The notes below the pieces were generated by a model, which saw only the letters and a program-made list of their open reading frames with translations, ran no database searches and had not been told where the DNA came from. From NCBI RefSeq assembly GCF_000172995.2, contig NC_014729.1, positions 750,001 through 782,000 on the forward strand: DNA of 32,000 bases, read 5' to 3'. The position numbers were made by a program, and so were the translations under genes. Positions 1-19,424 of the stretch are shown piece after piece. The DNA is from Halogeometricum borinquense DSM 11551 (lineage in GTDB: Archaea > Halobacteriota > Halobacteria > Halobacteriales > Haloferacaceae). The first letter of the stretch is position 1; each line of letters begins with the position of its first letter.

Positions 1-1455
1 GGTTTCGTCGGTGTCGGCGTCGTACTCGTCGGCATTGGCGTCGCCTCGCGGATCGGCGTCCTCGACACGAAACCCGACCGGACGGCGGGCGCACTTCCCG
101 CAGCCCTCTTCGGACTGATCGGGTTTGTCGTTGGGAGTCTTATCGGCTCCAGCACGCTCGGCTTCTCGACGTTCTGGCCGGTGTTCGGCATCGTTGGTGG
201 CGTTTCCCTCGCGGCCGCGGCACTCCTTCCCCGTGAGGATCTCGGCGTGACTATTCCTGCTGGTGGACTCGCGCTGTTCGGCGGGCTCACGTTCCTTACC
301 GGTCTCATCACGCCGTCGTGGACGTGGGAGCCCATAGCCGGATCGGCGACGTACACTGGTACGTTCGTTATCCCGTTCCTTGCTCTCTTCTTGGGCCTCC
401 TCACAGCGTGGGTCGGTGCCGAAGCCTACGGCGGATTCGGGACTCGCGGGCGTCAAATGGGTGCTTATCTCCTCATCGGTGCGAACGCAGTTGGGATGCT
501 CTCACTTCTCGTCATCCTTGTTGCGTTCGTCGTCAGTAAGGGATTCGCCCCGATGACTCGCGGGATCCGGTTCGGTCTGTTCTGGGAGCCGCTGACGTGG
601 TTCTACTTCCCGCCAATCGACAAATACGTCGTTATCGAAGGGCCGTTAGTGTGGTTCTACTGGCCGTTCGTGATGGAGGGCGTCGCGCTGATGACCGAGA
701 TCAACGGTATTTTCCCGGCAATCGTCGGCACGGTCTGGGTCGTCTTCGGCGCTGTCGTCTTCGCGATTCCACTCGGCGTCGGTGCGGCGGTTTTCCTGAC
801 CGAGTACGCCGAACGCGGGTGGTTCACTAAACTTGTCGAAATTTCAACCGATGGGTTGTGGAGTACGCCCAGTATCGTTTACGGGCTGTTCGGGCTGGCG
901 TTCCTCGTTCCCCGTCTCGGGAACACCACGTCGCTGCTCTCTGGAATGCTCGTTCTCGGCTTCATGATGCTTCCACTGGTGGTTATCACCAGCCGGGAGG
1001 CGCTCAAGAGCGTTCCTGACGACTACCGCGACGCCAGCGCTGCGCTCGGTGTCGGGAAATGGGAGACGATAAAAAGCGTCGTCCTCCCCGCCGCGATGCC
1101 CGGTGTTATCACCGGTGCCATCCTCGGTATTGGACGTATCGCGGGCGAGACGGCGCCGATCCTGCTCGTGATGGTCAGCGATCCGTTCCCCTCGCGTGCG
1201 ACAGATGTCTTCGCACCGGAGTTCGCCTTCGTCTCGGACTTCCCGTTCGTCCACGCACAAGTGATTGATCCGAATGCGTTGCTACAACCGACGAGTGCGC
1301 TCCCATACCAACTGTACGCGATAATTACAGCAGGTGTCGGCCAACGTGAATCGTTCGCGTGGGGGACGGCACTTGTGCTTCTCTTGGTCGTCTTGAGTTT
1401 CTACGTGGTCGGTATTGGCTCACGGATGTACTTCCGACGGAAGCTAGAACAATGA
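1..1455 (+). CDS. pstA: Phosphate ABC transporter permease PstA (5' end outside window)
   Basis: Frame 1 is open from nt 1, with no stop before the GTG at 181 that the ORF track uses. The product is a multi-TM protein with the ABC permease EAA-like region ([20 protein letters not shown]) and the tail [11 protein letters not shown]. It sits directly upstream of pstB with an ATGA overlap. Confidence 0.85.
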
Positions 1456-2360
1456 GTAACATGACACAGACGAATCCGGAAACTGAGGAAGCGAACGAAC
1501 AGATGACCGTCGTCGGAGAGAGCGACGAGGAACTCCGCGAGGAGTGGATCCAATACGAGTTCGAGGGCGAACCGAAGTTCTCGGTCCGCGACCTCAACGT
1601 GTGGTACGGCGACGACCACGCACTTCACGACATCTCGATGGACATCCCCGAAAAGAGTGTGACCGCACTCATCGGGCCGTCGGGATGTGGGAAGTCCACG
1701 TTCCTCCGATGCCTCAATCGGATGAACGACCGCATCAAAAGTGCGCGTGTCGATGGGTCAGTTAAGTTCGAGAATCAAGAGATATACCAGGACGGCACCG
1801 ACCTCGTAGAACTCCGAAAGCGCGTCGGACAGGTGTTCCAGTCGCCGAACCCGTTCCCGAAGTCGATTCGGAAGAACATCTCGTACGGCCCGCGAAAGCA
1901 CGGCGACATCAATACTGGACTTCTCGCACGCCTTACCGGCCGGGACGACTCCGACCGCGAAGACGAACTCGTCGAACGGTCGCTCAAACAGGCGGCCCTC
2001 TGGGACGAAGTGAGTGACCGACTCGGCGACAACGCGACTGGACTCTCTGGCGGACAACAACAGCGTCTCTGCATCGCACGGGCGCTGGCAACGGATCCGG
2101 AGGTCATCCTGATGGACGAACCTGCGTCCGCCCTTGACCCGGTCGCAACCTCGAAAATCGAAGATCTCATCGTCGATCTCGCGGAGGACTACACAGTCGT
2201 CGTCGTCACCCACAACATGCAACAGGCGGCCCGTATCTCAGATCAGACGGCTGTCTTCCTCACCGGTGGCTACCTCGTCGAGTACGACGACACCGACAAA
2301 ATCTTCGAGAATCCCGAGAGTCAGCGCGTCGAAGACTACATCACGGGCAAGTTCGGATAA
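1452..2360 (+). CDS. pstB: Phosphate ABC transporter ATP-binding protein PstB
   Basis: Walker [13 protein letters not shown] signature LSGGQQQR, Walker B ILMDEP and the PstB-typical [18 protein letters not shown] tail are present. The ATG at 1452 overlaps the pstA stop (ATGA). The track ORF start at 1359 would lie inside pstA. Confidence 0.93.
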
Positions 2361-2523
2361 CGTCGCTCTCAACGGACGGCGGTTGTCAGCTTCCTGCTTC
2401 TGACTGCGCTGTGCGAAGCAGTTTATACCGACACTCGATTTCGCGAATACGGAAATCCTTTCATCTGGCCTTCACGACCGCCTTTTCGCGCATCTTGGTC
2501 TCGGTATTGGTTCGCACGACACG

Positions 2524-2529
2524 TTTATT
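2524..2529 (+). promoter_or_regulatory. TATA-like box (TTTATT) for a leaderless phoU transcript
   Basis: The A/T hexamer is centred about 27 nt upstream of the ATG at 2554, which is the usual archaeal TATA-to-TSS spacing. Confidence 0.45.
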
Positions 2530-2553
2530 CGACTCCGCCGTGTGCGCCACACT

Positions 2554-3231
2554 ATGCCCCGAGAACAGTATCAGGACGCACTTGAGTCGCTCCGCGACGA
2601 CGTTCTCTACATGAGCGAAGTCGTCGCAGAGCGACTTCGAATGGGTCTGGATGCACTCGAACAGAAAGACGACCAGCTCGCAGAGGAGGTAATCGAGGGC
2701 GACGGCGAGATCAACCGAATGTATCTCGACCTCGAACAGGACTGCATCGACCTCATCGCGCTCCAGCAACCGGTTGCCTCGGACCTGCGTTTCATCGCCG
2801 CCTCGTTCAAGATCATCACGGATCTCGAACGAATCGGCGACTTGGCGACGAACCTTGCAAACTACGCAACTGAGGCGCAACGAGACGTGTTCCCCGAAGT
2901 CGATATTCAGCAGATCGGTGACGGAACGCTGGAAATGCTCGACAAGTCGATGGACGCGTACGCAGAAGAGAACCCCGAACTGTGTCGTGCTGTTGCCACT
3001 CAGGATGACGACATCGACGCGATGTGTGAGGCCGCAAGCGAGATGGTCGTCAGAGACCTGATCGAGACCGACCCGTTCGGTGAAGAAGACCGCGACGCAG
3101 AGGCCTATCTGTCTGATATCTCTCGGCTTCTCTTGACGGTTCGTGACCTCGAACGCGTCGGCGACCACGCTGTGAATATCGCCGCACGAGCGCTCTATAT
3201 GGTCGAAGACGACGACGAACTGCTCTACTAG
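2554..3231 (+). CDS. phoU: Phosphate uptake regulator PhoU
   Basis: Two PhoU repeats are visible (DLIALQQPVASDLRFIAASFKIITDLERIGDLATNLA and LLLTVRDLERVGDHAVNIA). The ORF opens at a GTG at 2542, but the ATG at 2554 fits the TATA spacing better. Confidence 0.9.
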   Translation: MPREQYQDALESLRDDVLYMSEVVAERLRMGLDALEQKDDQLAEEVIEGDGEINRMYLDLEQDCIDLIALQQPVASDLRFIAASFKIITDLERIGDLATNLANYATEAQRDVFPEVDIQQIGDGTLEMLDKSMDAYAEENPELCRAVATQDDDIDAMCEAASEMVVRDLIETDPFGEEDRDAEAYLSDISRLLLTVRDLERVGDHAVNIAARALYMVEDDDELLY

Positions 3232-16139: not shown

Positions 16140-16420
16140 TTCTGACTTTACTGCGGAGATAGGCCCCGTTATTTCGAGATAGGAACAGCTGCGGGCTCTC
16201 TTTTGTGTTGGTCGGAACACTATGACATCCTCCTCGCCGTTCACGGCGAGGTTTCCTCGCGCTGGGGTATCGTTTACCGACCCACGGAGGCAACTTGCGG
16301 GTTCGTATGCTCCTCGTTGGGACGGGGAGAGCGTGATGACTCCAACCATTCGTGGTTGTCCCACTTGAGGCATACAGGCCGTGCCATCGACCGTGTTACC
16401 GTCGTCTGCCGTTGACGAGA
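16140..16420 (-). ncRNA. Predicted TnpB guide RNA (omega/reRNA) scaffold region
   Basis: By analogy with characterised TnpB systems, the guide RNA overlaps the 3' end of tnpB and the IS right end. Downstream of the stop the minus strand has mutually exclusive hairpins GCGAGG-AAA-CCTCGC and CCTCGCCG-TGAA-CGGCGAGG. Boundaries are inferred, not seen. Confidence 0.3.
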
Positions 16421-17608
16421 CACAGAGTGTCTCGTTCGCCAATCAGAACTCAGAGAGTTCTGATGACGTCTCAAGAACGTCTCTGACGCCACGAGGTCAG
16501 CGTGCCCCTCGAAGCCACACGGACACGTCAGCGTATCTCTGTGGCGCGTCGTCTCCTCTGTCGAACCACAGTTGGGACACTCCTGACTCGTCCACGCCTC
16601 CGACCGAACCTCTACCGACATACCGTATTCCTTGGCGGTACACGCCACCCGGTTCACGAACGCCCTGAACGCCCAGAAATTGTGCGTTTTCGCGTTCGTC
16701 TCTACCGACCAGTGCGTTTCCAACACGTCAGTTAACGCCCCAACGTACACCGTCGAAACGCCTTCATCGTAGAGGCGTTCGATGAGGTCACGGGCGAGTG
16801 CGTCTTGGGCGTGGTCACGTCGCTTGGTACGTCGGTCGTACAGGCGTCGGATTCGGTGACTGCTGTATCGACCTTCCTCCAACAGTGATTGGAGTCGGGC
16901 GATTTCTCGTGTCGTCTCGCGGAACCTGTCGAACAGGTCACGTCCTTCGTACAATAGTTGTTGACCGGTTGTGGTTGTGCAGGCGACGAGGTTGTTCGCA
17001 CCAATATCCAGAGCGGCTTCTTCCGAAGCCAGTGGTTGTGCCAGTCGAGAATCATCGACGGTGACTGGCTGAAAGGCCCTGAACGATTGTGCTTGCTCGT
17101 CGTAGAACAACTCCAATCGACCCTGCTTCTCATACTCCGTCCAGTTCGGGTCGCCCCGAACTTCGAGCCGGAGGCGTTCGCGGTGTCCCAACCCGTACTC
17201 GTCTTTCAGGTCTTTGCCGACGAGGATTTCGAGCCGGGAGTATTCACCCCACTCGACCGAGTACGACGTGTTTCGGATGTACGTGCGGAGTTCTCGACCT
17301 TCGTCTGCGTTGCCCCAGTATCCGGGTTTTCCGTTGGCTTCGCCTTTCTTCCTAAGGCTGAAGAACGACTTCCACGCTTCGCGGTTCTTGCGCTCGATTT
17401 GCTGAACCGTGGACGCCCCGAGAACACCGCCGTAGCGACCACGATACTCGCTGATGTCCCACACGTCTCCGTCTGGGTCAGCATAGTGTTCGCGGCGCTC
17501 GTAGTTGATTTCGTTCCAGAGAGCGGCAGAAGCGTCCAACAGGCGTCGAAGCAACTCCTCGTCCTCGTCGGACAGAGGAACCACCTCGAACGTGTTGGCT
17601 CGCTTCAT
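16274..17608 (-). CDS. tnpB: TnpB (IS1341-type, RNA-guided nuclease family, OrfB)
   Basis: The 444-aa product has RuvC-I in [11 protein letters not shown], a zinc finger CPNCG...CPCG, and RuvC-III in [11 protein letters not shown]. The N-terminal [39 protein letters not shown] is typical OrfB_IS605. The RuvC-II glutamate is not obvious by eye ([11 protein letters not shown]). Confidence 0.9.
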
Positions 17609-17633
17609 CGACTACTGATTGCATCGGAACACA

Positions 17634-17640
17634 CATAAAG
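17634..17640. promoter_or_regulatory. Single A/T box (CATAAAG / CTTTATG) placed to serve both tnpB and the divergent RHH ORF
   Basis: This is the only A/T-rich element in the 53-nt gap. It lies 26-32 nt from the tnpB ATG (17608, minus strand) and 22-28 nt from the ATG at 17662 (plus strand). Confidence 0.4.
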
Positions 17641-17661
17641 ATGTGGTTTGTGTGCTACTAT

Positions 17662-17799
17662 ATGGTCGAAGTTCGCATCGAGTTCGATGACGACGAGCAG
17701 TACGAGCGACTGAAGGAACTGAAGAAACACCGTGGATTGACGTGGAAGGGGTTGCTCCTCGAAGGCGAGAAGAAAGTCAGGGAGGATACCCCGGAGTAA
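17662..17799 (+). CDS. Small ribbon-helix-helix (CopG/Arc-like) protein, 45 aa (52 aa if started at 17641)
   Basis: I translated it by hand: MVEVRIEFDDDEQYERLKELKKHRGLTWKGLLLEGEKKVREDTPE. The pattern is a beta-strand (VEVRIEF), helix 1, a G-x-T turn and helix 2, and the composition is acidic. It is too short for the supplied ORF track. Confidence 0.5.
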   Translation: MVEVRIEFDDDEQYERLKELKKHRGLTWKGLLLEGEKKVREDTPE

Positions 17800-17923
17800 G
17801 CGGCGAACGTGGGTTGTGCCGTAGAGTGTCGGATTCACGCCCGCCGTAAACGTCGGGACTCTCTCCTTGATTCAGGTAGCCGAGATATTGGCTGAGTTCG
17901 TGTCGAATGTGCTGGGCGTGCGA

Positions 17924-19325: not shown

Positions 19326-19349
19326 CCTTCACGAGGATGGAAAAACGAG

Positions 19350-19424
19350 TGGGTTGGGGCGGATTCGAACCGCCGGCCTGCTCCGTGTGAAGGAGCCGTC
19401 ATAACCTGGCTAGACCACCAACCC
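19350..19424 (-). tRNA. tRNA-Val (anticodon CAC)
   Basis: I folded the 75-nt cloverleaf by hand. The acceptor is GGGUUGG/CCAACCC. The anticodon stem is GCUCC/GGAGC with loop UUCACAC. The T-arm is GGCGG-UUCGAAU-CCGCC. A T5 run follows the 3' end. Confidence 0.9.

What the first reader, a model, noticed from the sequence alone, without database searches (positions are those of the whole stretch)
17606..17799. An unannotated 45-aa ribbon-helix-helix ORF sits head-to-head with tnpB across one shared TATA box
The gap between the tnpB ATG (17608, minus) and the next plus-strand ATG (17662) is only 53 nt. It holds a single A/T element (CATAAAG, 17634-17640). That element lies about 26-32 nt from the tnpB ATG and about 22-28 nt from the other, close to the archaeal TATA-to-start distance for leaderless mRNAs. 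The plus-strand ORF is too short for the ORF track. It reads MVEVRIEFDDDEQYERLKELKKHRGLTWKGLLLEGEKKVREDTPE, a textbook strand-helix-turn-helix RHH (CopG/Arc/MetJ) pattern. TnpB elements are normally described as tnpB alone or tnpA plus tnpB. I know of no description of an RHH DNA-binding partner at the tnpB promoter. Such a partner could act as a repressor that gates TnpB and guide-RNA expression, or as an accessory targeting factor. The 32 nt between the tnpB ATG and the first in-frame ATG of the RHH ORF (17641) is also too short to hold a normal IS605-family left end. This suggests the RHH gene travels inside the element.
Basis: partly seen in the sequence, partly recalled or inferred. Interest (0 to 1): 0.72.

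Follow-up and report, generated by a model that had tools for sequence, protein, structure and literature searches.

The report
Transposon-borne small DNA-binding regulator gene
A real, strongly conserved 45-residue protein gene rides inside a haloarchaeal tnpB-only insertion sequence, back-to-back with tnpB across a fixed 53-bp control region. It is most likely the archaeal counterpart of the Arc repressors recently shown to silence bacterial IS605-family transposons.

Summary
tnpB (16274-17608, minus strand) and a 45-codon ORF (17662-17799, plus strand) diverge across 53 nt. The ORF is a genuine gene. It has over 60 close homologues across many haloarchaeal genera, and dN/dS is about 0.05.

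In 57 of 58 genomic copies the ORF sits beside the tnpB 5' end. The spacing is exactly 53 nt in 51 of them.

Copy-to-copy homology runs from 16222 to 17879. The ORF and an 80-nt left end with a covarying hairpin therefore lie inside a 1658-bp IS1341-type element.

The ribbon-helix-helix (RHH) assignment is moderately supported:
- The AlphaFold model is strand-helix-helix.
- hhalign against CopG gives P = 1e-4, in register.
- The G-x-T turn between the helices is conserved.
- Pfam hits are sub-threshold, and Foldseek found nothing.

A wider family of 85 clusters also pairs with a second, unrelated TnpB clade and with a LAGLIDADG homing endonuclease.

The novelty claim is outdated. RHH "Arc" proteins in bacterial IS605 elements bind and repress the divergent tnpB promoter (bioRxiv 2026), and an archaeal RHH/MazE-TnpB pairing was described in 2023.

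The repressor role and the shared TATA box are inferred here, not shown. Verdict: a new archaeal member of a known kind, of moderate interest.

The parts
16222..17879 (-). Complete IS1341-type (tnpB-only) IS200/IS605-family element, 1658 bp. The top strand is the minus strand. The last 4-5 nt at the left end (GGTAG on the plus strand, 17875-17879) may be the conserved target/TAM rather than the element proper.
   Evidence: Alignments of independent copies lose similarity exactly at these positions. BLAST of the window region against 9 non-syntenic copies aligns only to window 16219-17880, all starting within a few bases of 16222. The window holds a single copy.
16222..16412 (-). Right end plus the putative omega-RNA scaffold. 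It overlaps and follows the 3' end of tnpB and ends ...GGAGGATGTCAT.
   Evidence: This region is nearly invariant across copies and far more conserved than the tnpB coding sequence. Sub-threshold Rfam hits to sot0042 (a haloarchaeal IS1341 sense-overlapping RNA) and HgcC fall at 16214-16366 on the minus strand, E about 0.4. The role is inferred from known TnpB biology.
16274..17608 (-). tnpB, a 444-codon ORF. RuvC-I is D201. The canonical RuvC-II Glu is replaced by Gly290. RuvC-III is D371. The CxxC...CxC zinc finger is present.
   Evidence: Pfam and NCBIfam hits. Alignment to Cas12f places G where the catalytic E sits. These residues are invariant in 33 aligned copies.
17609..17661 (.). 53-nt divergent control region, 41.5% GC against 61% for the whole window.
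   Evidence: The length is exactly 53 nt in 51 of 57 copies.
17628..17638 (+). Conserved left block AAC-R-CACATAA. It is also a candidate operator half-site (CACAT).
   Evidence: Conservation is at least 95% at CACATA. The motif occurs only once in the 32-kb window. Its function is inferred.
17646..17657 (+). Conserved right block GTT-YR-TGTG-W-TA. RTGTG is the inverted partner of CACAT, with centres about 18 bp apart. It is a candidate operator half-site between the TATA box and the start of the small gene.
   Evidence: Conservation is shown. It is unique in the window. The 7-nt spacer at 17639-17645 is variable. Its function is inferred.
17662..17799 (+). 45-residue RHH-like protein gene. 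Predicted strand at residues 3-5, helix at 11-24, G25-L-T27 turn, and helix at 28-34.
   Evidence: (dN/dS about 0.05).
17800..17879 (-). Left end of the element, with a subterminal hairpin. The stem is 17840-17846 paired with 17851-17857, and the loop TAAA is at 17847-17850.
   Evidence: The region is conserved in all copies. The 7-bp stem shows at least 4 different compensatory variants: CCCGCCG/CGGCGGG, CCCGGCC/GGCCGGG, CCCAGCC/GGCTGGG and CCCCGCC/GGCGGGG.

Best explanation
**What it is.** Window 16222-17879 is a non-autonomous IS200/IS605-family (IS1341-type) insertion sequence. Besides tnpB and its 3' guide-RNA scaffold, it carries a 45-residue ribbon-helix-helix-type DNA-binding protein gene. 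That gene is transcribed divergently from tnpB.

**Proposed mechanism.** The protein dimerises and binds the conserved CACAT...RTGTG blocks in the 53-bp intergenic region. These blocks straddle a single A/T-rich TATA-like core roughly equidistant (about 24-30 nt) from both start codons. Binding would occlude TBP/TFB/RNA polymerase. It would thereby repress both tnpB (and hence the omega-RNA read from the same transcript) and the protein's own gene. This would keep the element's RNA-guided nuclease at a low, self-limited level, as bacterial IS605 'Arc' proteins do.

**Shown here**
- The gene is real and under strong purifying selection.
- It lies inside the element.
- Its linkage to tnpB and the spacing are fixed.
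- The intergenic blocks are conserved.
- Relatives pair with a second TnpB clade.

**Inferred**
- The RHH dimer.
- DNA binding.
- Repression.
- Leaderless transcripts from one shared TATA box.
For: **Gene reality.** 65 homologues and dN/dS of 0.054 over 57 copies.

**Linkage to tnpB.**
- The tnpB 5' end lies beside the gene in 57 of 58 close copies, and the spacer is exactly 53 nt in 51 of them.
- The identical protein sits next to tnpB in 10 places in different genomic contexts.
- Several genomes hold multiple copies.

**Inside the element.** The homology limits are 16222 and 17879, and the left-end hairpin lies beyond the ORF.

**RHH-like fold.**
- The AF2 model is beta-alpha-alpha.
- hhalign against CopG gives P = 1.1e-4. 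The strand, helix A and the GL(T/S) turn align in register.
- Weak hits fall on RHH_1, ParD, NikA-like and RHH_3, and on a PHROG 'Arc-like repressor' family.
- UniRef names include 'CopG family transcriptional regulator'.
- Natural tandem-duplicated relatives are consistent with an obligate dimer.

**Operator and promoter.** Conserved blocks flank a variable spacer, and they are unique in the window.

**Generality.** Relatives at 41-59% identity sit divergent to a different TnpB clade that is only 27% identical to this one.

**Precedent.** Bacterial IS605 Arc proteins, including those of arc+tnpB-only elements, bind the bidirectional promoter in ChIP-seq and repress reporter expression (bioRxiv 10.64898/2026.09.24.754181).
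Against: - No significant match to any Pfam or NCBIfam model, or to PDB sequences.
- Foldseek returned nothing for either the monomer model or the tandem-relative model.
- Model confidence is only moderate: pLDDT 68 and 71.
- The hhalign probability is 56%.
- The candidate half-sites are short and imperfect, and their centres are about 18 bp apart. That is not the roughly 10-11 bp typical of adjacent RHH dimers.
- No transcript, TSS or binding data exist for this element.
- The correlation between beta-strand residue 3 (E or A) and the operator variant is confounded by lineage.
- The predicted DNA-facing strand residues include two glutamates (E3, E7), which is unusual for a DNA-contact surface. 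Haloarchaeal proteins are, however, generally acidic.
Confidence: 0.6

Rival explanations
1. The small protein is a protein-level inhibitor or antitoxin of TnpB. It would bind TnpB or the TnpB-omega-RNA complex and block target cleavage, as proposed for the archaeal RHH/MazE-TnpB pairs. It would not act at the promoter.
For: PMC10691335 proposes exactly this for archaeal RHH-TnpB pairs, with co-folding models. The association with two unrelated TnpB clades fits a TnpB-directed function.
Against: - The genes are divergent, not an antitoxin-first operon.
- This TnpB keeps the RuvC-III Asp and the zinc finger, unlike the RIIIr-4 clade of that system.
- The elements are multi-copy and mobile.
- Relatives also pair with a LAGLIDADG endonuclease or stand alone. 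This fits a generic DNA-binding regulator better than a TnpB-specific binder.
- The 53-bp spacer carries conserved blocks, as expected of an operator.
Confidence: 0.1
2. The protein is a transposition accessory factor. It would bind the element's ends (the left end is only 40-80 nt from its stop codon) or the target. It would modulate excision or integration by a TnpA supplied in trans, or choose targets.
For: The gene abuts the left-end hairpin. The element lacks its own tnpA, so some trans-acting control is conceivable. RHH proteins such as NikA and other relaxosome accessory factors bind DNA-processing sites, and there are weak NikA-like hits.
Against: The intergenic motifs are not repeated in the left end, the right end or anywhere else in the window. 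IS200/IS605 ends act as single-stranded hairpins recognised by TnpA itself, which is established family knowledge. No accessory factor is known to be needed.
Confidence: 0.1
3. The protein binds the intergenic region but works as an activator or a switch. It might, for example, orient TBP/TFB on the symmetric TATA box towards one gene, rather than act as a plain repressor of both promoters.
For: Some RHH proteins activate transcription. AlgZ is cited in the Arc preprint. A single quasi-symmetric TATA box serving two genes would need a direction-setting factor. The two conserved blocks are not equivalent.
Against: Most RHH regulators, and all tested IS605 Arc proteins, repress. A site overlapping the TATA box favours occlusion.
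Confidence: 0.12
4. The ORF is not translated. Its conservation would reflect DNA- or RNA-level constraints of the transposon left end.
For: The ORF is short, has no Pfam family, and lies next to the left end.
Against: Substitutions are overwhelmingly synonymous, with dN/dS of 0.054 and third-position variability 4-7 times that of positions 1 and 2. The protein family extends to 85 clusters at 33-60% identity, including fusions and tandem repeats.
Confidence: 0.01

Closest known systems
Arc (RHH) repressors encoded in bacterial IS605-family transposons and IStrons (Moon et al., bioRxiv 10.64898/2026.09.24.754181; first noted in bioRxiv 10.1101/2023.11.20.567912)
   Same: - A micro-protein of 50 residues or fewer with an RHH-type pattern.
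- Encoded inside the IS boundaries.
- Oriented divergently from tnpB across a short intergenic region that acts as a bidirectional promoter.
- Arc+tnpB-only elements exist.
- Relatives also neighbour homing endonucleases.
   Different: - The host is archaeal, so the promoter is TATA/TBP-based, apparently with one shared TATA-like core and probably leaderless mRNAs.
- There is no tnpA in the element.
- The protein family has no significant match to RHH Pfam models. Its homology to the bacterial Arc clade was not testable here.
- The partner TnpB has a Gly at the canonical RuvC-II Glu position.
- Binding and repression are not demonstrated.
Archaeal RHH/MazE-TnpB system (Altae-Tran et al. 2023, PMC10691335)
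   Same: An archaeal small RHH-type protein genetically linked to a TnpB with a rearranged catalytic site.
   Different: In that system tnpB lies downstream of, and co-directional with, the RHH/AbrB gene. Its TnpB has RuvC-III Asp replaced by His and lacks the zinc finger. The loci are non-mobile and were proposed to be toxin-antitoxin pairs. Here the genes are divergent, RuvC-III Asp and the zinc finger are kept, and the unit is a multi-copy mobile IS.
CopG / Arc / MetJ ribbon-helix-helix transcriptional repressors (Pfam clan Met_repress)
   Same: Size of about 45 residues, beta-alpha-alpha order, a G-x-S/T turn before helix B, an autoregulatory gene position next to the likely operator, and an in-register hhalign match to CopG.
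   Different: Sequence similarity is below every curated threshold. The dimer and DNA binding are unverified. The conserved TW(K/R)G(L/M)LL signature in helix B is specific to this family.
Haloarchaeal IS1341-type tnpB elements with 3' sense-overlapping (sot) RNAs (PMC4615843)
   Same: A tnpB-only IS200/IS605-family element of Halobacteria with a conserved 3' RNA region. There is a weak sot0042 match in the right place and on the right strand.
   Different: As far as I know, those elements are described as tnpB alone. This clade carries an extra conserved gene between tnpB and the left end.

Membership tests
Ribbon-helix-helix superfamily (CopG/Arc/MetJ) | N-terminal beta-strand followed by two helices (beta-alpha-alpha) | tested here: met
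   AF2 with the family alignment gives a strand at residues 3-5 and helices at 11-24 and 28-34, with mean pLDDT 67.6. Confidence is moderate only.
Ribbon-helix-helix superfamily (CopG/Arc/MetJ) | Significant profile match to a curated RHH family | tested here: inconclusive
   The query itself has no Pfam or NCBIfam hit. Family members give only sub-threshold hits: RHH_1 (best E 0.0057), ParD, NikA-like and RHH_3. hhalign against a CopG alignment gives P = 1.1e-4 over 35 in-register columns, with probability 56%.
Ribbon-helix-helix superfamily (CopG/Arc/MetJ) | Conserved G-x-S/T/N turn at the start of helix B | tested here: met
   G25 is invariant and L26 and T27 at least 90% conserved in the close family. 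G25 and T27 stay at least 90% conserved in the wide family. The turn aligns to GLS of CopG.
Ribbon-helix-helix superfamily (CopG/Arc/MetJ) | Structural similarity to solved RHH structures | tested here: not met
   Foldseek against PDB found no match with E of 0.001 or better for the monomer model or the tandem-relative model. The models are short, monomeric and of medium confidence, so this is weak negative evidence.
Ribbon-helix-helix superfamily (CopG/Arc/MetJ) | Obligate homodimer with an intersubunit antiparallel beta-ribbon that binds the major groove | not testable with these tools
   No multimer or DNA-complex prediction was available. The indirect hints are natural tandem-repeat relatives and the model of one of them, which has a beta-hairpin plus four helices.
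IS605-family Arc repressors (Moon et al. 2026) | Gene lies within the transposon boundaries | tested here: met
   Homology between independent copies spans 16222-17879 and includes the ORF and the left-end hairpin.
IS605-family Arc repressors (Moon et al. 2026) | Divergent from tnpB across a short intergenic region that serves as a bidirectional promoter | tested here: inconclusive
   The geometry is met in 57 of 58 copies, with a 53-nt spacer and a conserved A/T core equidistant from both ATGs. Promoter activity cannot be tested here.
IS605-family Arc repressors (Moon et al. 2026) | Sequence-specific binding to, and repression of, the transposon promoter | not testable with these tools
   This needs EMSA, ChIP or reporter assays. 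Here there are only conserved candidate blocks.
IS605-family Arc repressors (Moon et al. 2026) | Sequence homology to the bacterial Arc clade (e.g. WP_094548610.1, WP_003367503.1) | not tested
Archaeal RHH/MazE-TnpB system (PMC10691335) | tnpB downstream of, and co-directional with, the RHH/AbrB gene | tested here: not met
   The genes are divergent in every copy.
Archaeal RHH/MazE-TnpB system (PMC10691335) | TnpB of clade RIIIr-4: RuvC-III Asp replaced by His, and no C4 zinc finger | tested here: not met
   D371 (HADLxAS) and the CxxC...CxC motif are invariant in 33 copies.
Archaeal RHH/MazE-TnpB system (PMC10691335) | Non-mobile, fixed locus | tested here: not met
   Several genomes hold multiple copies, and the unit appears in at least 10 different genomic contexts with sharp element boundaries.
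IS200/IS605 family, IS1341-type (tnpB-only) insertion sequence | TnpB with OrfB_IS605 and zinc-ribbon domains, and no tnpA in the element | tested here: met
   The only ORFs conserved across copies within 16222-17879 are tnpB and the small gene.
IS200/IS605 family, IS1341-type (tnpB-only) insertion sequence | Subterminal hairpin at the ends, rather than terminal inverted repeats | tested here: met
   The left-end hairpin shows compensatory changes. The right end is sharply conserved and ends in GTCAT. I did not separately test a right-end hairpin.
IS200/IS605 family, IS1341-type (tnpB-only) insertion sequence | Guide (omega) RNA scaffold at the 3' end of tnpB, extending to the right end | tested here: inconclusive
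   A block of about 190 nt is nearly invariant, and there are sub-threshold sot0042 and HgcC hits on the correct strand. No covariance model was built and no expression data exist.

The most novel reading that the evidence does not exclude
A Halobacteria-specific family of micro-proteins with the signature EQYE.L...K..G(L/Y)TW(K/R)G(L/M)LL is the archaeal solution to transposon self-restraint. One RHH dimer set would gate a single, quasi-symmetric TATA box that fires two leaderless transcripts. This module would have been recruited independently by at least two unrelated TnpB clades and by LAGLIDADG homing endonucleases. Because the protein can diffuse, it would also act in trans on all copies and provide copy-number sensing or 'immunity'. 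It would be the first transposon-encoded transcription factor characterised in Archaea, and a natural on/off switch for archaeal TnpB genome editors.
Probability: 0.35. Interest if true: 0.6.

Novelty: new member of a known kind. Interest (0 to 1): 0.42.

Why it matters
- TnpB is the ancestor of Cas12 and among the most abundant prokaryotic genes. How its expression is restrained is only now being worked out, and so far only in bacteria.
- This locus extends the 'IS-encoded RHH regulator at the tnpB promoter' arrangement to Archaea. There it would have to act on a TBP/TFB promoter.
- The extension is not a one-off. The family forms a large haloarchaeal clade, and its relatives pair with a second TnpB clade.
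- The locus offers a compact 53-bp, apparently bidirectional archaeal promoter with a dedicated 45-residue regulator. Both are easy to test in Haloferax volcanii.
- It also shows that IS1341-type 'tnpB-only' elements can carry a second gene that ORF-length cut-offs hide.

Tried and rejected
- **Curated family scans.** Pfam and NCBIfam scans of the 45-residue protein gave no hit.
- **PDB sequence searches.** Searches with the close (A1) and wide (A4) family profiles gave only chance-level hits to uS13, FtsX and similar proteins.
- **Foldseek against PDB.** Neither the monomer model nor the model of the tandem-repeat relative P0073 gave anything meaningful. The second AF2 job ran without an alignment, which limited its value.
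- **hhalign with single sequences.** A1 against single CopG and Arc sequences was uninformative, with probability below 1%. Only the wider profile against a CopG alignment gave a usable signal.
- **Empty-site search.** Searching metagenome contigs with the joined flanks found nothing. The exact TAM and whether 17876-17879 belong to the element therefore remain open.
- **Classification as the RHH/MazE-TnpB toxin-antitoxin system.** Considered and rejected on orientation, catalytic residues, zinc finger and mobility.
- **'Conserved DNA, not protein'.** Considered and rejected on dN/dS.
- **Preferential retention of the small gene after tnpB decay.** About 12-15 copies have a disrupted tnpB, against 2 with a disrupted small ORF. 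I rejected this as evidence because the ratio matches the roughly 10-fold difference in target size.
- **Coevolution of residue 3 and the operator.** The E/A correlation with operator variants is confounded by shared ancestry, so I do not count it as evidence of coevolution.
Full report
**1. The observation**

- A 444-codon ORF on the minus strand (16274-17608) starts with an ATG at 17608.
- A plus-strand ORF starts at 17662 and ends at 17799.
- Between them lie 53 nt (17609-17661). This stretch has 41.5% G+C, against 61% for the whole window, and holds CATAAAG at 17634-17640.

The long ORF is a TnpB. It hits Pfam OrfB_IS605 (2.4e-26) and Cas12f1-like_TNB (4e-13), and NCBIfam guided_TnpB (4.8e-40). 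The short ORF translates to the quoted 45 residues and matches no Pfam or NCBIfam model.

**2. The small ORF is a real gene**

A search of 5.8 billion proteins returned 65 homologues. Apart from two partial hits they are 67-100% identical, and nearly all are 43-50 residues long. They come from Haloprofundus, Halorubrum, Natrialba, Halomicroarcula, Halegenticoccus, Natronobiforma, Haloferax, Haladaptatus and others. All of them start at the MV(E/A)(V/I)R position, so 17662 is the true start, not the upstream in-frame ATG at 17641.

Over 57 genomic copies, mean pS is 0.59, mean pN is 0.068 and median dN/dS is 0.054. Variability is 0.069, 0.039 and 0.264 at codon positions 1, 2 and 3. One copy (L004) differs from the window by 17 synonymous and 0 non-synonymous changes. 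This excludes a chance ORF and excludes conservation at the DNA level only.

The protein is more conserved than its TnpB neighbour. In L053, for example, it is 87% identical against 68% for TnpB.

The gene is not absent from public annotation. RefSeq lists it as a hypothetical protein (WP_009762047.1, WP_006114978.1). UniRef names one member of the same 90% cluster 'CopG family transcriptional regulator', and names more distant relatives 'Ribbon-helix-helix protein, copG family'.

**3. Linkage to tnpB and element boundaries**

A scan of one genome per species gave 60 loci.
- In 57 of the 58 loci with a close homologue, the tnpB 5' end lies head-to-head with the small gene. The exception, L039, is an N-terminally truncated remnant.
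- In 51 of these the spacer is exactly 53 nt.
- The identical 45-residue protein occurs in 221 index blocks. All ten places read show the same geometry: nine are in unrelated neighbourhoods and have tnpB called, and in the tenth, the syntenic L077, tnpB is frameshifted.
- Several genomes hold 2-4 copies.

Aligning independent copies shows where similarity ends.
- On the small-gene side it ends at ...TTGATTCAGGTAG (window 17879), 80 nt beyond the stop codon.
- On the tnpB 3' side it ends at ...GGAGGATGTCAT on the minus strand (window 16222).
- BLAST of the window region against nine non-syntenic copies aligns only to about 16222-17879/17880, starting within a few bases of 16222.

The element is therefore 1658 bp and occurs once in the window.

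The 80-nt left end holds a 7-bp stem with a 4-nt loop (17840-17857). The stem has at least four different compensatory variants across copies, which is the subterminal hairpin typical of IS200/IS605 ends.

The last ~190 nt before the right end are almost invariant. They give weak, correctly placed and correctly oriented Rfam hits to sot0042, the haloarchaeal IS1341 sense-overlapping RNA, and to HgcC, with E about 0.4. I read this block as the omega-RNA scaffold. That is an inference.

A related strain (L077, 95.6% identical across flanks and element) carries the same insertion, with a frameshifted tnpB and an intact small gene.

**4. The TnpB**

Alignment to Cas12f places Gly290 (VYVGALTD) where the RuvC-II glutamate normally sits (qmEdL). 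RuvC-I D201, RuvC-III D371 (HADLxAS) and the CxxC...CxC zinc finger are present, and all are invariant in 33 copies.

This corresponds to the Glu-to-Gly rearrangement described for the major clade RIIr-5 in PMC10691335. It is not the RIIIr-4 clade, which has Asp replaced by His and no zinc finger, and which that paper links to RHH/MazE partners.

**5. What the small protein is**

Evidence for a ribbon-helix-helix fold:
- AF2 with the family alignment predicts a strand at residues 3-5 and helices at 11-24 and 28-34, with mean pLDDT 67.6.
- G25 is invariant and L26, T27 at least 90% conserved in the close family. G25 and T27 stay at least 90% conserved in the wide family. They sit at the turn where RHH proteins carry G-x-S/T/N.
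- hhalign of the wide family profile against a CopG alignment aligns strand, helix A and turn in register over 35 columns. The pairwise P is 1.1e-4 and the probability is 56%.
- Sub-threshold hits of individual members concentrate on RHH-clan families: RHH_1 (best E 0.0057), ParD, NikA-like, RHH_3 and DUF6290. One hit is to a PHROG 'Arc-like repressor' family.
- Several relatives are natural tandem duplications, as expected for a domain that works as a dimer. The model of one of them shows a beta-hairpin followed by four helices, with pLDDT 71.

Evidence against, or simply missing:
- No curated threshold is reached.
- There are no PDB sequence relatives.
- There are no Foldseek matches.
- Dimer modelling was not possible.

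I rate the RHH fold at about 0.8. It is not 'textbook'.

**6. The wider family**

An exhaustive HMM search of 1.84 billion cluster representatives found 85 clusters with E of 0.001 or better. All look like acidic haloarchaeal proteins sharing EQYE.L...K..G(L/Y)TW(K/R)G(L/M)LL.

Their genomic contexts vary:
- Members at 41-59% identity (L059, L062, L065, L063/L064) lie divergent to a different TnpB clade. That clade has the canonical VLEDL motif and is only 27% identical to this TnpB over the RuvC core.
- One member (P0110) overlaps the start of a LAGLIDADG homing-endonuclease gene.
- Others stand alone (P0083, P0128) or are fused to longer proteins (L061).

This distribution mirrors what is reported for bacterial Arc-like proteins, which neighbour TnpB, homing endonucleases and other genes.

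**7. The control region**

Across 51 copies with the 53-nt spacer, the consensus is CAACTACTGGTTGTACCGGAACACACATAAATGTTCCGTTCGTGTGATACTGT. Two blocks are strongly conserved: AAC-R-CACATAA (17628-17638) and GTT-YR-TGTG-W-TA (17646-17657). A variable 7-nt spacer separates them. Each block occurs only once in the 32-kb window.

CACAT and RTGTG are an inverted pair with centres about 18 bp apart.

The conserved ATAA core (17635-17638) lies 27-30 nt from the tnpB ATG and 24-27 nt from the small-gene ATG. This is the usual TATA-to-start distance for leaderless archaeal mRNAs, by general knowledge. The invariance of the spacer length argues for a geometric constraint.

No tool here can show promoter activity or start sites.

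**8. Mechanism**

Best explanation, with confidence 0.6: the protein is an RHH-type autoregulator. It binds the conserved blocks around the shared TATA core and represses both tnpB (and with it the omega RNA) and its own gene. This would keep the nuclease low and self-limited.

The direct precedent is bacterial. Arc proteins of IS605-family elements, including arc+tnpB-only ones, bind the intergenic bidirectional promoter in ChIP-seq and repress reporter expression. Mutations in the beta-strand and in the binding site relieve that repression (bioRxiv 10.64898/2026.09.24.754181).

Rivals:
- **A protein-level TnpB inhibitor or antitoxin**, as proposed in PMC10691335 (0.1). The divergent orientation, the different TnpB clade, the mobility of the element and the non-TnpB contexts of relatives all argue against it.
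- **A transposition accessory factor acting at the ends** (0.1). The intergenic motifs are not repeated at the ends.
- **An activator or direction switch on the symmetric TATA box** (0.12).
- **A non-coding artefact** (0.01). This is refuted by dN/dS.

**9. Comparison with what is known, and novelty**

- The Arc-like ORF was noted in IStrons and IS605 elements in 2023 (bioRxiv 10.1101/2023.11.20.567912).
- An archaeal RHH/MazE-TnpB pairing was described in 2023 (PMC10691335).
- Promoter binding and repression by Arc were shown in a September 2026 preprint.

The preprint's main text mentions archaea only in its reference list. I found no description of this haloarchaeal family or of a second gene in IS1341-type haloarchaeal elements, though I searched only the two term pairs, and my one in-paper check of a haloarchaeal IS paper failed on a term error.

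The locus fails the defining features of the RHH/MazE-TnpB system. It fits the architecture of IS605 Arc elements. Homology to the bacterial Arc clade and DNA binding remain untested.

I classify it as a new, archaeal member of a known kind. The archaeal promoter context and the sequence-distinct protein family are its own features.

**10. Verdict**

The gene, the linkage and the location inside the IS are shown. The RHH fold is likely. The repressor role and the shared TATA box are inferred. The novelty claim is outdated.
- Interest is 0.42.

Noticed in passing
window 16274-17608 (TnpB residues 287-300): The canonical RuvC-II glutamate is replaced by glycine (VYVGALTD). This is invariant in 33 copies, with conserved D294 and E/D297 nearby. 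It matches the Glu-to-Gly rearrangement described for TnpB clade RIIr-5 in PMC10691335. Whether this nuclease is active is unknown.
   Followed up: partly
L018:2290-2820 and L023:2290-2820 (alignment A3, columns 248-294): Two copies carry an extra insertion of about 47 nt inside the otherwise invariant terminal part of the putative omega-RNA/right-end region. It is itself GC-rich and looks like a hairpin.
   Followed up: no
P0070, P0073, P0085, P0088, P0093, P0105, P0107: Some relatives of the small protein are natural tandem duplications: two TW(K/R)G repeats in one chain of 107-151 residues. They may be single-chain pseudo-dimers. The AF2 model of P0073 shows a beta-hairpin plus four helices.
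   Followed up: partly
L067:607-1454, also L068-L070: A distant family member (P0110, 45 residues) overlaps by 4 nt the start of a LAGLIDADG_2 homing-endonuclease gene, forming an apparent operon. This echoes the association of bacterial Arc with homing endonucleases.
   Followed up: no
L059:2704-4138, L062:2665-4135, L065:1707-3141: A second haloarchaeal TnpB clade has the canonical VLEDL RuvC-II motif and is only 27% identical to the window's TnpB. It also has a divergently oriented member of the same small-protein family, at spacings of about 28-58 nt.
   Followed up: partly
L077 (CP050274.1), locus 1400-3138: A related strain is 95.6% identical to the window across element and flanks and has the same insertion at the same site. 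Its tnpB is frameshifted after 39 codons, while the 45-residue protein is identical. Overall, the excess of disrupted tnpB genes over disrupted small genes is about what the 10-fold size difference predicts.
   Followed up: partly
window 16274-16340: The tnpB ORF here is 444 codons, whereas many copies stop at 424-426. The longer frames read on into the conserved RNA-scaffold region, so the C-terminal tail is probably not functional protein.
   Followed up: no
window 19349-19424 (minus strand): A tRNA-Val (anticodon CAC) gene lies about 1.5 kb from the element (Rfam 62 bits; ARAGORN). There is no sign that the IS targets it.
   Followed up: no
L001, L040, L041, L046, L048-L050, L052, L053, L055-L057: A sub-lineage of the element has a different left-end terminus...GCATGCGCTTGATTATATGTCA(C/T/A). 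The main type ends ...ACTCTCTCCTTGATTCAGGTAG. This suggests different target/TAM motifs: TGAC against CTAC on the top strand.
   Followed up: no
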